From IMG/VR virus record IMGVR_UViG_2537561693_000022: 18,932 bases of DNA; one strand, given 5' to 3'. How positions within the stretch are numbered: the first letter of the stretch is position 1; each line of letters begins with the position of its first letter. The position numbers were made by a program. The DNA comes from a virus (taxonomy: Duplodnaviria; Heunggongvirae; Uroviricota; Caudoviricetes). Positions 3,001-6,000 of the stretch are shown here, in pieces.

Positions 3001-6000
3001 GATTGCTGCAATAGCAGCTTCTGCAAGCAACTCATTTTTTTCGTAATGTTTACGAAGTTTATTGGCAATATCCTGGAGTTTTAAATGTCTATTAACTTGT
3101 GTGCTTTCGGATACCTTCAGTGCTGCTGGCTCAAAATATAATGGGTCTTCCATAAGCGCACTTATGCGGATGTGTACAACATTATACCCCCATTCTTTGG
3201 ATATCTCTTCGATAATTTTGTTTATCGTTCTCATGCCACATCCAACATATCCACACAATCCAAGATAAATATCTTTTGATTGTCGTGAATTCACAATCTC
3301 AAGTGATGATGCCGATGTTGAGCCTTTTTTTTCATTCAGCTTTTGTGGAGTTTTTTTTGCTGCTTCAGCCATTGCTAATTACCTAGTCGAAAACTATATC
3401 AGTATTTAATATTTCAAAAAATGCATCAAGAATTTCTTTATTTTTCTTTTTACTTTCAAATGAAATGACATTATCTTGATTAAATGTTGTTAATTCAATG
3501 CAGATAGAATCAACCTGATCATTGGCGGCGATGCTCGATTCTATTTCATTAAATGCTATTACATTCATTTATCTTATCCAAACATAATAAAAAACCATAT
3601 GGCCTTTAGTGTACAACAAAACCATACTCTTTCCCCTCATTTTAGAGGGGGAAGTGTGGTCCACATCATGTTTTTTCCCACCCATGAAAATGTTCACCTA
3701 GGCTGGTGAGGCATTTTATGTACATCAACTCTTTGAGTTGAATCATTATTTTAGTATTTTTTCTATCATTGTGTAAATGTCTTCGTTTCAATACATCATG
3801 CTTGGGGAGCGGTCCCCGTTTCCTGATAATTAATGCTTGTGGATAGCAACGTCCGTGCCTGTATCGCTCAGACAGACGCTTACCGTGCCATAGACGTGTC
3901 TGTTCACATACGTCATTCAATAACTCCTGCAAACCTGTAAATCTTGCGTGAAGCCCATTTATTTGGGCATGATTTAATATCAGGATCTGGAAAATCAGGC
4001 CTGTACTTCTGGCCAGTTCTCCGGTTTACGCTGTTCCAGCGAAGAACTGTCGATACTGAAACGCCACAGAAGTCGGCGACTTGTTTAGTTGTCATTAAGT
4101 TGTTCATTACTTCACCTCCTGCGGCGGTTCCGGTAGCGGCATCCAGTGGGTTACTTTCGATGCCGGTTCTTCTCCATTGTCAGTAACTGCCCACCATTTG
4201 TTTCTCGAACAATCATAATACCCTTCGAAGGTATCGCACTCAGTCCAGCCGTAAGACTTACCCCAACACCAAACATACTGTTTATCGTTCGGCATTCGCT
4301 CACTACAGCTTATCCAACCATCCGGAGTTACCGGAGAGTTGCCCGACAGCTTGTTCAACTTGTAAGTCTGGCTTACAGGTTTGGCACCATGAAGCATGGT
4401 GGCGCGGCAGGTGTTCCAGCCTTCATCAAAACCGACTATGCCATTATTTAAAGACGGACGAGCATCTGGCACCACCAGTACTGGCTTGGCTATATATAGC
4501 GGCTGAACATACCAGCCCTTTGATAACCAACTGTCAGCAATGTTTTTGCTCCTGGTTATTGCCGGAATACCTAAGCCATTGTCTGAATGCAGCCATGCCA
4601 CCGGCTCCTCTTCCAGCGATGCCAGAGCAATTTCATAAGCACGGCGCTCAATATCGTCTCGAACCTCTAGGCTGCTGATTCGTTCTTTGATTTCTTTAAT
4701 CAGTTCTTTATTGGTAAATGTGGTCATTATGCTCCAGCCTCCGGCGCTTTGGGTATTACTGCCCAGTGAGTGATATTGAAGTTTTCAAGGTCCCCGACCT
4801 GAAATGTCCACTGCCATTCTCCGGTTTCTTTTTGTCCCCAGGTGTACCAGAGAGAACGCCAGCCAATCAGCCAGCCTTCTCCGTTAGCATCAAATAACAG
4901 AACACTTTCATTTGCTGGTGGCAGTTCAGCTGACACTGGTATTATTTTGTTTTCCAGTGCCGCACATTTAGCTTCAAGCGCGTCGAATTTACGTACCAGG
5001 TACTCAGCATTTGTTTCGTTCACTTTCAGATCTCGCGGTACACATTTCCCGCGAAGAAACCCTTCCATTTCGAAAACATTCATGCGCATTTGCGTAACTC
5101 CGATAATTCGTTAAAGCGTTCCATAAACATCCCGTAGGCATGGCCTGGAGCCAGTGGAATCACGTTGATCATCTCTGTTGCCGGGATACCTTCCAGCACA
5201 GGCCAGAAAGAGCCATCATCAAGCCCGAGATCGCGGCGTTCGGTTGCCAGCATGATGAGATCGGCATATTTCACGGGTGTACTCATAACCGGGGGTAACC
5301 CGTATTTCTCACGGATTACGGCGTCTATTTTTTATTCCATCCGTTTATAGTCAGGAAGAAGGCGTTTCAGTGGAGCCGGGATGTCCTGGCAATACGCTTC
5401 TGTTGCATCATGCATTAAGGCTTCAAAAGCAAATTCCTGCGGCACCAGCTGGCTGCAAAGAACCGCATGTTGGGCGACGCTGTAGAAGTGCGAAAGATGA
5501 CCGGCAAAGCGACAGATATTTGAAAGGGAAACCGCGATATCGTTAATATTGATGTCGTCTTTATTTATCTTGTCATAATAAAAATGCTTCCCGGAAAAAG
5601 TTTTAATAAATGACATTTTGTTCTCCACGTATATGCGCTGCACCGCGCTGAATTCTGGTAAAAAGAATCCCTCACCATCCGGCGATTATTGAGTAAATTA
5701 CGTTTCCATAAATGCCCCCGCAGGGGCATTTGCAGTAATGAAATCAGGCGGTGAAAGTACCAATAAAGGTTTCTACTTTGCTGTCTTTGAATTTCTCAAC
5801 AAGCAGATCACGAAATTCGTTAGCCATTTCTTCCTGCACCGCTTCCAGCTGAATAATGCGCAGAACCAGTACAGGACGATCGCCAGTGATAATGCTGAGG
5901 CGTAATTTAAATGGACGTTCTTTCAGGCCTTCAAACGGAACGCATTTAAATTCAAATGCCACTGGCATAATGTCTTTGGTCTTCGCTTCGACAGACTCCA

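What the first reader, a model, noticed from the sequence alone, without database searches (positions are those of the whole stretch)
3373..3912. Upstream region of the deaminase gene may encode the inhibitory partner, as protein or as small RNA
In AvcID systems the deaminase toxin is held in check by a small RNA encoded adjacent to its 5' end. Here the equivalent position holds a 61-aa ORF with a weak RBS, followed further upstream by ~340 bp of AT-rich non-coding sequence containing a GC hairpin (CTTTCCCCTC...GAGGGGGAAG, about 3628-3655) and further TGTACA motifs (about 3612 and 3709). It is undecided whether the inhibitor is the small protein or an RNA overlapping it.
Basis: inference. Interest (0 to 1): 0.6.

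Follow-up and report, generated by a model that had tools for sequence, protein, structure and literature searches.

The report
Antitoxin-like small gene before anti-phage deaminase
The stretch upstream of the anti-phage dCTP deaminase is the promoter, leader and 61-codon small gene of a mobile two-gene AvcID-type cassette; the small gene is related to one already shown to neutralise a similar E. coli deaminase, and it evolves like a real protein although the inhibitor is described as a non-coding RNA.

Summary
In detail: the 61-aa ORF (3383-3568, minus strand), its weak ribosome-binding site, 344 bp of unannotated DNA, the GC hairpin (3629-3654) and a TGTACA at 3610. The second TGTACA is at 3719, not 3709.

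The region is not phage regulatory DNA. From about 3790 to 1739 it is one low-GC cassette: promoter-like site, about 173-nt leader with the hairpin, ORF61, 531-aa anti-phage dCTP deaminase 10 nt downstream, terminator. It recurs at 83-86% identity in 14 unrelated contexts across Enterobacterales.

ORF61 is a protein-level homologue of the 61-aa ORF upstream of the dCTP deaminase on E. coli ETEC H10407 plasmid p58, presumably the ETEC AvcD of Hsueh et al. (deaminases 61% identical). That group reported that the ETEC small-ORF DNA neutralises its deaminase.

Protein or RNA stays open. ORF61 shows coding selection (dN/dS 0.24; 34 of 76 changes synonymous, against 19-26% expected). Its first 10 codons are frozen even at synonymous sites, and no RNA covariation is detectable. 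Published work on the Vibrio systems says the inhibitor is RNA.

Verdict: a new member of a known system, with an unreported coding signature.

The parts
3748..3777 (-). Sigma-70-like promoter of the cassette: TTTACA, 18-nt spacer, TAAAAT. The predicted transcription start is near 3741.
   Evidence: It matches 10 of 12 consensus positions. The -35 and -10 blocks are conserved in 10 of the 13 distinct homologous loci in other contexts (L008, L010, L012, L014, L016-L019, L006; not in L013, L015, L007). The number of promoter-like hits in the region is no higher than in shuffles, so this is a prediction only.
3569..3741 (-). 5' leader of the cassette transcript, about 173 nt. It is conserved along with the cassette.
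   Evidence: Mean pairwise difference is 0.11-0.25 over 3718-3569, against 0.58-0.68 upstream of 3779. The alignment of 3700-3536 has 91% mean column identity. Folding energy is -52.1 kcal/mol, z = -3.3, with 0 of 200 shuffles as stable. Relatives give z = -1.8 to -5.4. Control windows inside the deaminase gene reach -3.6, so the signal is moderate.
3625..3658 (-). It is followed on the sense strand by GGTTTTGTTGT.
   Evidence: It is present in all 13 cassette homologues, but no covariation is detectable: 74% of cells pair, the same as in shuffles. In L014, four C-to-U changes keep G.U pairing on the sense strand only. It is not a canonical terminator by the scan.
3383..3568 (-). ORF61, the avcI-equivalent small gene: 61 codons plus a stop codon, with a weak Shine-Dalgarno sequence.
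   Evidence: It matches phrog_9966 over 61/61 positions, function unknown. Most homologue clusters at 75-98% identity are exactly 61 aa, and so is a 39%-identical outlier. dN/dS is 0.24. 34 of 76 substitution events are synonymous against 19-26% expected, p = 4e-7 to 4e-4. It is homologous to the ETEC H10407 p58 small ORF. Codons 1-10 show zero third-position variation.
3373..3385 (-). Junction TAGGTAATTAGCA. The ORF61 stop codon TAG forms part of the weak AGGT Shine-Dalgarno sequence of the deaminase. The spacer is a constant 10 nt.
   Evidence: The spacing is identical in all 14 close loci and is 7 nt in L024. Translational coupling is inferred, not shown.
1777..3372 (-). 531-aa anti-phage dCTP deaminase (AvcD type). 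It has two A8 runs within its first 17 codons.
   Evidence: NF041025 at 463 bits (cut-off 400), PADLOC dCTPase at 544 bits, and Pfam PF00383 at residues 252-434. It is 61% identical to the ETEC H10407 p58 deaminase. dN/dS is 0.09.
1739..1770 (-). Intrinsic terminator ending the cassette: a 13-bp stem followed by TGTTTTTATA, 7 nt after the deaminase stop codon.
   Evidence: Cassette conservation ends between about 1730 and 1630.
3913..4107 (-). Phage excisionase gene. This is context, not part of the cassette; it marks the phage side of the upstream boundary.
   Evidence: phrog_1553 excisionase, E = 7.7e-36. It is unannotated in the closest genomes.

Best explanation
Window 3790-1739 (minus strand) is one self-contained, horizontally mobile AvcID-type defence cassette. 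It sits as a moron (a self-contained extra gene unit) between the integrase and excisionase genes of an E. coli prophage integrated at prfC.

The interval in the finding is the 5' half of that cassette. It holds a sigma-70-like promoter (3777-3748), a structured leader of about 173 nt containing the GC hairpin, and the 61-codon ORF61. The stop codon of ORF61 overlaps the ribosome-binding site of the deaminase gene.

ORF61 is the counterpart of avcI, the cognate inhibitor locus. Proposed mechanism (inferred):
- The promoter drives one transcript through leader, ORF61 and deaminase.
- A labile product of the ORF61 segment binds the deaminase and holds it inactive after translation.
- When a phage shuts off host transcription, the inhibitor decays.
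- The freed deaminase converts dCTP/dCMP to dUTP/dUMP and starves phage replication.

By analogy with the tested Vibrio systems, I take the inhibitor most likely to be the RNA. In this enterobacterial family, however, the RNA is also a translated mRNA whose 61-aa product is itself under selection, which would make it a dual-function antitoxin locus.

Shown here: cassette unity, the homology to ETEC avcI, and the coding selection. Inferred: transcription, the inhibition itself, and RNA versus protein. My confidence that the inhibitor is encoded here is about 0.8. My confidence in the specific reading 'RNA inhibitor that is also translated' is about 0.5.
For: Deaminase identity.

Fixed pairing: ORF61 lies 10 nt upstream of a 529-531-aa deaminase in 14 loci. 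Their flanks are unrelated (P4-like primase, P2 ogr, conjugative-element transfer genes, GmrSD, restriction genes, other prophages).

Cassette boundary: conservation at 83-86% nt runs from window 3857-3700 down to 1730-1630. Cassette GC is 35% against 48% for the rest of the window.

Link to a tested system: the ETEC H10407 p58 locus has the same layout, a 61-aa ORF 12 nt upstream of a 532-aa deaminase. The deaminases are 61% identical. The small ORFs are homologous (hhalign probability 76%, E 2.3e-5, in exact register; eight invariant residues over the full length). The ETEC small-ORF DNA suppresses filamentation caused by its cognate deaminase, and V. cholerae AvcI works as an RNA of 152-174 nt even with start codons mutated (10.1101/2021.03.31.437871). 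In V. parahaemolyticus, AvcI decays after rifampicin but not spectinomycin (PMC10511110).

Coding signal.

Nucleotide-level signal: the first 30 nt of ORF61 are the most conserved bin of the whole cassette (0.028). Third-position variation is zero over codons 1-10, lower than in any 10-codon window of the deaminase. The 5' 91 nt fold into a long hairpin (z = -2.6). That hairpin is kept in register in the 60%-identical L024 homologue, with 13 shared pairs and one compensatory change.

Natural variants: none of the 49 E. coli genomes with this region was seen to combine an intact deaminase with a disrupted upstream region. The IS1 insertions at 3616-3623 that were examined lie in a clone whose deaminase is already frameshifted.
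Against: No experiment exists for this cassette. Toxicity and its relief are extrapolated from a relative with 61% deaminase identity. The ETEC accession in the paper (WP_096882215.1) differs from the p58 protein found here (WP_000951932.1), so the identification is presumed.

RNA evidence is weak. There is no Rfam match. There is no covariation for either hairpin. The full ORF RNA is not unusually stable (z = -1.0). The 5' hairpin region has no counterpart in the ETEC ORF, where nt identity over codons 1-28 is at chance level.

The strong coding signature fits a protein antitoxin at least as well as an RNA one. There is no terminator between ORF61 and the deaminase that would give a discrete small RNA. 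The promoter is only a consensus match, at a frequency no higher than in shuffles.
Confidence: 0.5

Rival explanations
1. The 61-aa protein, not the RNA, is the inhibitor. The cassette would then be a type II-like toxin-antitoxin pair: a small labile protein, translationally coupled to the deaminase, binds and blocks it. Phage-induced shut-off of gene expression would deplete the protein.
For: dN/dS is 0.24, and 0.21 for codons 13-61. Synonymous changes are in excess, p = 4e-7 to 4e-4. Variable sites by codon position are 19/13/31.

The length is exactly 61 aa in the 39%-identical P0030 and in the ETEC family. Between the window and ETEC, codons 29-61 are conserved in the order 2nd > 1st > 3rd position (0.67/0.52/0.42), while the DNA of codons 1-28 is unrelated.

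The small ORFs of other deaminase lineages have strong Shine-Dalgarno sequences (-6 to -11 kcal/mol), and one pair gives dN/dS 0.29.

The stop codon overlaps the ribosome-binding site of the deaminase.

The preprint reports start-codon-to-stop and no-RBS controls only for the V. cholerae constructs, not for the ETEC one. Whether the ETEC test therefore fails to separate protein from RNA is my inference.
Against: In V. cholerae, start-to-stop and no-RBS constructs still inhibit. In V. parahaemolyticus a translation inhibitor does not activate the deaminase.

The AlphaFold2 model of ORF61 has low confidence (pLDDT 50). ORF61 matches no known antitoxin or DNA-binding domain. Its own ribosome-binding site is weak. 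The frozen synonymous sites in codons 1-10 need an explanation at the nucleotide level.
Confidence: 0.3
2. The region acts only in cis. It would be the promoter, 5' leader and an upstream ORF that sets deaminase translation by coupling, with no trans-acting inhibitor. The deaminase would be controlled some other way.
For: The 10-nt spacing is constant and the stop codon overlaps the deaminase ribosome-binding site. Both ribosome-binding sites are weak. There is no internal terminator. Tal et al. (2022, cited) and the PADLOC model treat the dCTP deaminase as a single-gene system (the single-gene description is from my knowledge of that work).
Against: A coupling ORF needs only to stay open, yet the amino-acid sequence is conserved. 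The homologous ETEC element works in trans from a second plasmid. More distant deaminases lack any small ORF, so coupling is not a general requirement.
Confidence: 0.12
3. The hairpin and the AT-rich DNA are phage sequence unrelated to the deaminase, for example the terminator of the early-left/excisionase operon or recombination sites.
For: The region lies directly downstream of the excisionase gene. The scan finds terminator-like sites on the + strand at 3725-3741 and 3693-3710. TGTACA repeats occur near the integrase gene.
Against: The hairpin and at least 3700-3569 are conserved with the deaminase in non-phage contexts: P4-like elements, conjugative elements and other islands. Only 3790/3857-3912 diverges and can be phage DNA.
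Confidence: 0.04

Closest known systems
AvcI-AvcD (formerly DifV-DcdV) of E. coli ETEC H10407, plasmid p58 (NC_017723.1: small ORF 2618-2803, deaminase 2816-4414)
   Same: The layout matches: a 61-aa ORF on the same strand 10-12 nt upstream of a 531/532-aa deaminase with kinase-like and deaminase domains. The deaminases are 61% identical over their full length. The small ORFs are homologous as proteins, with invariant M1, N16, N33, F37, K44, I53, I58 and D61, and both end in (F/L)D followed by the stop codon. The ETEC small-ORF DNA neutralises only its cognate deaminase, and the system defends against phage.
   Different: The ETEC copy is on a 5.8-kb mobilisable plasmid; this one is in a prophage. 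The ETEC small ORF has a strong Shine-Dalgarno sequence (-7.7 against -3.1 kcal/mol). Its 5' half and leader share no detectable nucleotide similarity with the window's. Small-ORF identity is only 26-28%, so cross-inhibition is unlikely (inference).
AvcI-AvcD of Vibrio cholerae VSP-1 and V. parahaemolyticus (type III toxin-antitoxin; Hsueh et al. 2022, 2023)
   Same: The element lies immediately 5' of the deaminase in the same orientation and overlaps a small ORF (174/222 nt). It is co-transcribed with the toxin, inhibits after translation, and the deaminase is activated by transcription shut-off.
   Different: In those systems the inhibitor was shown to be an untranslated RNA of 152-174 nt, about 280 nt at full length. 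Here the ORF shows clear protein-level selection. I could not obtain the Vibrio sequences. No similarity to the window's ORF is claimed, and the authors themselves found none among the four systems.
Single-gene 'dCTP deaminase' defence system (Tal et al. 2022; the PADLOC dCTPase and NCBIfam NF041025 models)
   Same: The deaminase matches both models above threshold.
   Different: Those models ignore the upstream gene. Here the small ORF is an obligate companion across contexts.
Small ORFs ending in W (56-62 aa) upstream of other dCTP deaminase lineages: E. coli and Klebsiella 4.6-kb plasmids, a conjugative element, conjugative plasmids, Photobacterium and V. coralliilyticus plasmids
   Same: Position, size and strand are the same. 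They also carry a coding signature: dN/dS is 0.29 and identity by codon position is 0.75/0.68/0.45 for L020 against L027.
   Different: There is no detectable homology to the ORF61/ETEC family (hhalign probability 1.9%). The spacers are longer (12-74 nt) and the Shine-Dalgarno sequences are strong.

Membership tests
AvcID toxin-antitoxin / anti-phage dCTP deaminase system | The toxin is a protein of about 530 aa with an N-terminal kinase-like domain and a C-terminal zinc-dependent deoxycytidylate deaminase domain. | tested here: met
   PF00383 covers residues 252-434. NF041025 scores 463 bits against a cut-off of 400 and covers residues 35-483. PADLOC dCTPase scores 544 bits. The protein is 61% identical to the ETEC H10407 p58 deaminase. 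The kinase-like domain is covered only by the family models, not by a Pfam domain of its own.
AvcID toxin-antitoxin / anti-phage dCTP deaminase system | The inhibitor locus lies immediately 5' of the toxin gene, on the same strand, overlapping a small ORF of about 170-220 nt. | tested here: met
   ORF61 is 186 nt, on the same strand, 10 nt upstream. The arrangement is invariant in 14 homologous loci.
AvcID toxin-antitoxin / anti-phage dCTP deaminase system | The 5' element is related to an experimentally validated avcI. | tested here: met
   The ORF61 family profile against the ETEC p58 small ORF gives hhalign probability 76%, E 2.3e-5, in exact register. The full-length alignment has 8 invariant residues. 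Two caveats: the relation is seen at protein level only, and identifying the p58 locus with the published ETEC construct is presumed.
AvcID toxin-antitoxin / anti-phage dCTP deaminase system | The inhibitor acts as an untranslated RNA (the type III definition). | tested here: inconclusive
   For RNA: synonymous sites of codons 1-10 are frozen, and a hairpin is kept in register in L024. Against or neutral: there is no covariation, no Rfam match, dN/dS is 0.24 and synonymous changes are in excess. This needs experiment.
AvcID toxin-antitoxin / anti-phage dCTP deaminase system | The deaminase alone is toxic, the upstream element relieves the toxicity after translation, and the deaminase is activated by transcription shut-off. 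| not testable with these tools
   There is only indirect support. No genome examined combined an intact deaminase with a disrupted upstream region, and decay of the deaminase gene is recurrent in one clone (A8-to-A7 frameshift, IS421 insertion).
Type II toxin-antitoxin system (protein antitoxin) | A small protein antitoxin is encoded upstream of the toxin, in an operon with it, under protein-level selection. | tested here: met
Type II toxin-antitoxin system (protein antitoxin) | The antitoxin carries a recognisable DNA-binding or antitoxin fold (HTH, RHH, AbrB, Phd/YefM and similar) used for autoregulation. | tested here: not met
   There are no Pfam, NCBIfam or PADLOC hits. The only match is phrog_9966, of unknown function. 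The AlphaFold2 model has pLDDT 50, with two short strands and one helix.
Any curated RNA family (Rfam 15) | A match at or near the gathering score. | tested here: not met
   The best hit in 1500-4400 scores 22.9 bits against a gathering score of 35.2, and all E-values are 0.5 or higher.

The most novel reading that the evidence does not exclude
In the enterobacterial ORF61/ETEC branch of AvcID, the antitoxin locus is a translated gene. Its 61-aa product would either be the true inhibitor of the deaminase (a type II-like system misfiled as type III) or work together with its own mRNA as a dual-function RNA-and-protein antitoxin. The 'non-coding sRNA' description of AvcI would then hold for only part of the family. 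The ORF-less lineage (L022, L031), with its conserved non-coding upstream region, would be the purely RNA form.
Probability: 0.3. Interest if true: 0.75.

Novelty: new member of a known kind. Interest (0 to 1): 0.5.

Why it matters
AvcID is the textbook case of a deaminase toxin held in check by a small-RNA antitoxin, and annotation pipelines treat the anti-phage dCTP deaminase as a single gene. Three things follow from this locus:

1. The deaminase moves between prophages, satellites, conjugative elements and plasmids as a fixed unit of promoter, leader, small ORF, deaminase and terminator. The small gene should therefore be annotated and cloned together with the deaminase.
2. The small ORF forms protein families under purifying selection, and one of them includes the experimentally used ETEC 'AvcI'. 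This reopens the question of whether the antitoxin is RNA, protein or both.
3. The cassette offers simple test constructs: a start-codon mutant against a synonymously recoded ORF.

If the peptide matters, the trigger logic of this widespread defence changes, because loss of transcription and loss of translation would then have different effects.

Tried and rejected
- Rfam scan of 1500-4400: nothing near threshold.
- Covariation tests on the leader hairpin and on the long hairpin in the 5' half of ORF61: no better than shuffles, because the arms hardly vary.
- Folding energy of the full ORF RNAs in five lineages: not significant, z = +1.3 to -1.4. Leader z-scores are negative within this family only, and control windows inside the deaminase gene reach -3.6.
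- AlphaFold2 model of ORF61: pLDDT 50. I did not use it for fold searches.
- Profile comparison of the ORF61/ETEC family with the W-ending small-ORF family: no relation, probability 1.9%.
- Searches for more distant ORF61 relatives: one outlier (P0030) among 1.84 billion representative proteins, and nothing further from P0030 itself.
- IS1 insertion as a natural experiment: I first read IS1 at 3616-3623 together with the deaminase frameshift as 'antitoxin loss selects for toxin loss'. I rejected this because strain N96 has the same A8-to-A7 frameshift without IS1, so the toxin gene probably died first.
- Internal promoter TTGAAT-N17-GATAAT at 3498-3470: only a consensus match at chance frequency.
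- Ten-codon upstream ORF (ATGATGTGG...) and the palindrome TGTGGNCCACA in the leader: not conserved in homologues.
- TGTACA motifs as a feature of this region: rejected.
- 88-aa ORF at 3666-3932: it spans the cassette boundary and has no family support, so it is spurious.
- Locating ETEC H10407 by DNA similarity failed. A protein search (tblastn) of the plasmid collection found it.
- The Nature Microbiology paper and the preprint supplements were not available.
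Full report
**1. Setting**

The window is an E. coli prophage integrated next to yjjG in prfC. Window 91-159 repeats the start of prfC. The integrase gene is at 386-1624 (+). On the minus strand lie the 531-aa deaminase gene (1777-3372), the interval in the finding (3373-3912), an unannotated excisionase gene (3913-4107; phrog_1553, E 7.7e-36) and early-left genes of the yfdP-yfdS type.

The deaminase is an anti-phage dCTP deaminase. It scores 463 bits against NCBIfam NF041025 (cut-off 400), 544 bits against PADLOC dCTPase, and matches Pfam PF00383 at residues 252-434.

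**2. The observation**

- The 61-aa ORF is at 3383-3568 on the minus strand.
- Its Shine-Dalgarno sequence is weak, at -3.1 kcal/mol.
- 3569-3912 is 344 bp of mostly unannotated DNA at 40% GC.
- The hairpin is at 3629-3654.
- One TGTACA is at 3610-3615.

The second TGTACA is at 3719-3724, not about 3709. The window's excess of this motif (9 against 4.2 expected) comes from four copies at 320-376 in front of the integrase gene. Only the 3610 copy is conserved in relatives.

**3. The region belongs to a mobile cassette**

The 540-bp interval occurs in 49 of 5,426 complete E. coli genomes, always at 98.5% identity or more. Searching with the ORF61 protein gave 29 clusters at 75-98% identity in Serratia, Budvicia, Yersinia, Klebsiella, Salmonella, Proteus, Morganella, Enterobacter, Cronobacter and Phytobacter. 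Most of them are exactly 61 aa; a few are truncated or extended variants.

In the 14 loci I fetched, ORF61 lies exactly 10 nt upstream of a 529-531-aa deaminase. The flanks are unrelated to one another: a P4-like primase, P2 ogr, conjugative-element transfer genes, GmrSD, restriction enzymes, other integrases.

Pairwise alignment with the window shows 83-86% identity. It starts at window 3857, 3787 or 3700, depending on the locus, and ends at 1730-1630. Divergence falls from 0.58-0.68 upstream of 3779 to 0.11-0.25 across the leader.

The cassette has 35% GC, against 48% for the rest of the window. It ends in an intrinsic terminator at 1770-1739.

A promoter-like site, TTTACA-N18-TAAAAT at 3777-3748, is conserved in 10 of the 13 distinct loci. 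They are not phage regulatory sequence.

**4. Link to a tested system**

Hsueh et al. (bioRxiv 10.1101/2021.03.31.437871) showed that V. cholerae AvcI (then called DifV) is an RNA of 152-174 nt. It lies immediately 5' of avcD, on the same strand, overlapping a small ORF whose translation is dispensable. [quoted passage not shown]

A protein search of plasmid records found H10407 plasmid p58. It carries a 61-aa ORF (2618-2803) 12 nt upstream of a 532-aa deaminase that is 61% identical to the window's.

The ORF61 family profile aligns to the ETEC ORF with hhalign probability 76% and E 2.3e-5, residues 29-61 on 29-61. A full-length alignment has invariant M1, N16, N33, F37, K44, I53, I58 and D61.

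ORF61 is therefore the homologue of an element with demonstrated inhibitor activity. One caveat: the paper cites WP_096882215.1 for the ETEC deaminase, whereas the p58 protein is WP_000951932.1. That they are the same construct is presumed.

**5. Protein or RNA?**

*Coding evidence*
- Variable sites by codon position are 19/13/31.
- dN/dS is 0.24, against 0.09 for the deaminase.
- 34 of 76 substitution events are synonymous, against 19-26% expected from random mutation (p = 4e-7 to 4e-4).
- A 39%-identical outlier, P0030 in locus L024, keeps 61 codons and sits 7 nt before a 74%-identical deaminase.
- Between the window and ETEC, codons 29-61 are conserved in the order 2nd > 1st > 3rd position (0.67/0.52/0.42), while codons 1-28 are unrelated at DNA level.

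*RNA evidence*
- The first 30 nt of ORF61 are the most conserved bin of the cassette (0.028).
- Codons 1-10 have no third-position variation at all. That is lower than in any 10-codon window of the deaminase.
- These nucleotides and 3508-3479 form the arms of a long hairpin (z = -2.6). L024 retains it in register, with 13 shared pairs and one compensatory change.
- The leader folds well (z = -3.3).

*Limits of the RNA evidence*
- Covariation is nil.
- Rfam is silent.
- The full ORF RNA is not unusually stable.
- Control windows inside the deaminase gene reach similar z-scores.

The AlphaFold2 model of the peptide is uninformative (pLDDT 50).

**6. Other deaminase lineages**

Deaminases 40-52% identical to the window's come from E. 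coli and Klebsiella 4.6-kb plasmids, a conjugative element, conjugative plasmids, and Photobacterium and V. coralliilyticus plasmids. Each has a 56-62-aa ORF upstream that ends in W followed by the stop codon. Most have strong Shine-Dalgarno sequences, and one pair gives dN/dS 0.29. This family is not detectably related to ORF61.

Deaminases at 33-37% identity have no small ORF. Two of them (L022 and L031) share a conserved non-coding upstream stretch.

Coding-type small ORFs are thus a general feature of this deaminase family. Published experiments nevertheless show RNA activity in the Vibrio members.

**7. Natural variants**

One E. coli clone carries an A8-to-A7 frameshift at 3351-3358. Some members also have IS421 in the 3' end of the deaminase gene and IS1 at 3616-3623, between the hairpin and ORF61. 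The frameshift also occurs without IS1, in strain N96. The toxin gene was therefore probably lost first, and this is not evidence for antitoxin function. It remains true that I saw no genome with an intact deaminase and a broken upstream region.

**8. Verdict**

The interval encodes the AvcI-equivalent partner of an AvcID-type cassette (confidence about 0.8). I rate 'RNA inhibitor that is also a translated, selected mRNA' as most likely (about 0.5). Protein-only inhibition comes second (about 0.3), and a cis-only role third (about 0.12).

It is a new member of a known system. The unreported point is the protein-level conservation of the 'non-coding' antitoxin locus, including the experimentally used ETEC one.

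Noticed in passing
window 320-376: Four TGTACA copies lie within 57 bp, directly upstream of the integrase start codon (386) and beside the prfC-derived attachment site. They are probably integrase, excisionase or repressor binding sites in the integrase promoter. They account for the window's excess of this motif (9 against 4.2 expected).
   Followed up: partly
window 3351-3358 and 3325-3332 (minus strand: A8 runs in codons 4-8 and 15-17 of the deaminase): Two A8 homopolymer runs sit in the first 17 codons of the toxin gene and are conserved in nearly all cassette homologues. An A8-to-A7 frameshift in the first run is fixed in one E. coli clone (N96, 08-00022, OkiPb strains). This could be a slippage-prone on/off switch or a poly-lysine translation brake.
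   Followed up: partly
window 3913-4107 (minus strand): This 64-aa excisionase (phrog_1553, E 7.7e-36) is not annotated in the identical RefSeq genomes. In relatives it is called an incomplete 'DNA-binding protein' pseudogene.
   Followed up: partly
window 5332-5334 (minus strand), within the yfdR homologue at 5080-5616: The prophage's 5'-deoxynucleotidase gene (yfdR) carries a premature stop codon in this window (KRME*KIDAV). It is intact (KRMEEKIDAV) in strain Ec-U11. It is a nucleotide-metabolism gene 2 kb from the deaminase.
   Followed up: partly
L022:1450-1738 and L031:960-1131: A more distant dCTP deaminase lineage (33-34% identity; an E. coli lambdoid prophage and a Pantoea plasmid) has no upstream small ORF. 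The two loci share a highly conserved non-coding stretch of about 170 nt (…GGTCAAACCATCTNGTCAAAAGGATTACTAACTCAAGTTTC…). It is a candidate for a genuinely non-coding AvcI-like RNA.
   Followed up: no
L028:940-1113 (Vibrio coralliilyticus plasmid pSNUTY2): An unannotated 57-codon ORF (174 nt with its stop codon) ends in …KLDW, 51 nt upstream of the deaminase. It has the same length as the 174-nt ORF reported inside V. cholerae avcI, which suggests the Vibrio avcI ORFs belong to the W-ending family.
   Followed up: no
protein P0024 (616-nt ENA contig): This is an in-frame fusion of ORF61 residues 1-56 to the deaminase from residue 3. It could be a natural antitoxin-toxin fusion or an assembly artefact.
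   Followed up: no
L004, L032, L033 (IS1 at window-equivalent 3616-3623); L032-L034 (IS421 after nt 1407 of the deaminase gene); L005: In one bovine/STEC-like clone the cassette is decaying step by step through a frameshift, IS1, IS421 and an IS-mediated rearrangement. The ORF61 sequence itself stays intact (WP_040091656.1).
   Followed up: yes
L025:2455-2480 (ETEC p58): The ETEC leader also has a CCCTCT…AGAGGG GC hairpin about 150 nt upstream of its small ORF. It is preceded by an A8 run, so it would be a canonical terminator on the opposite strand. It resembles the window's hairpin in composition, but I could not align the two.
   Followed up: no
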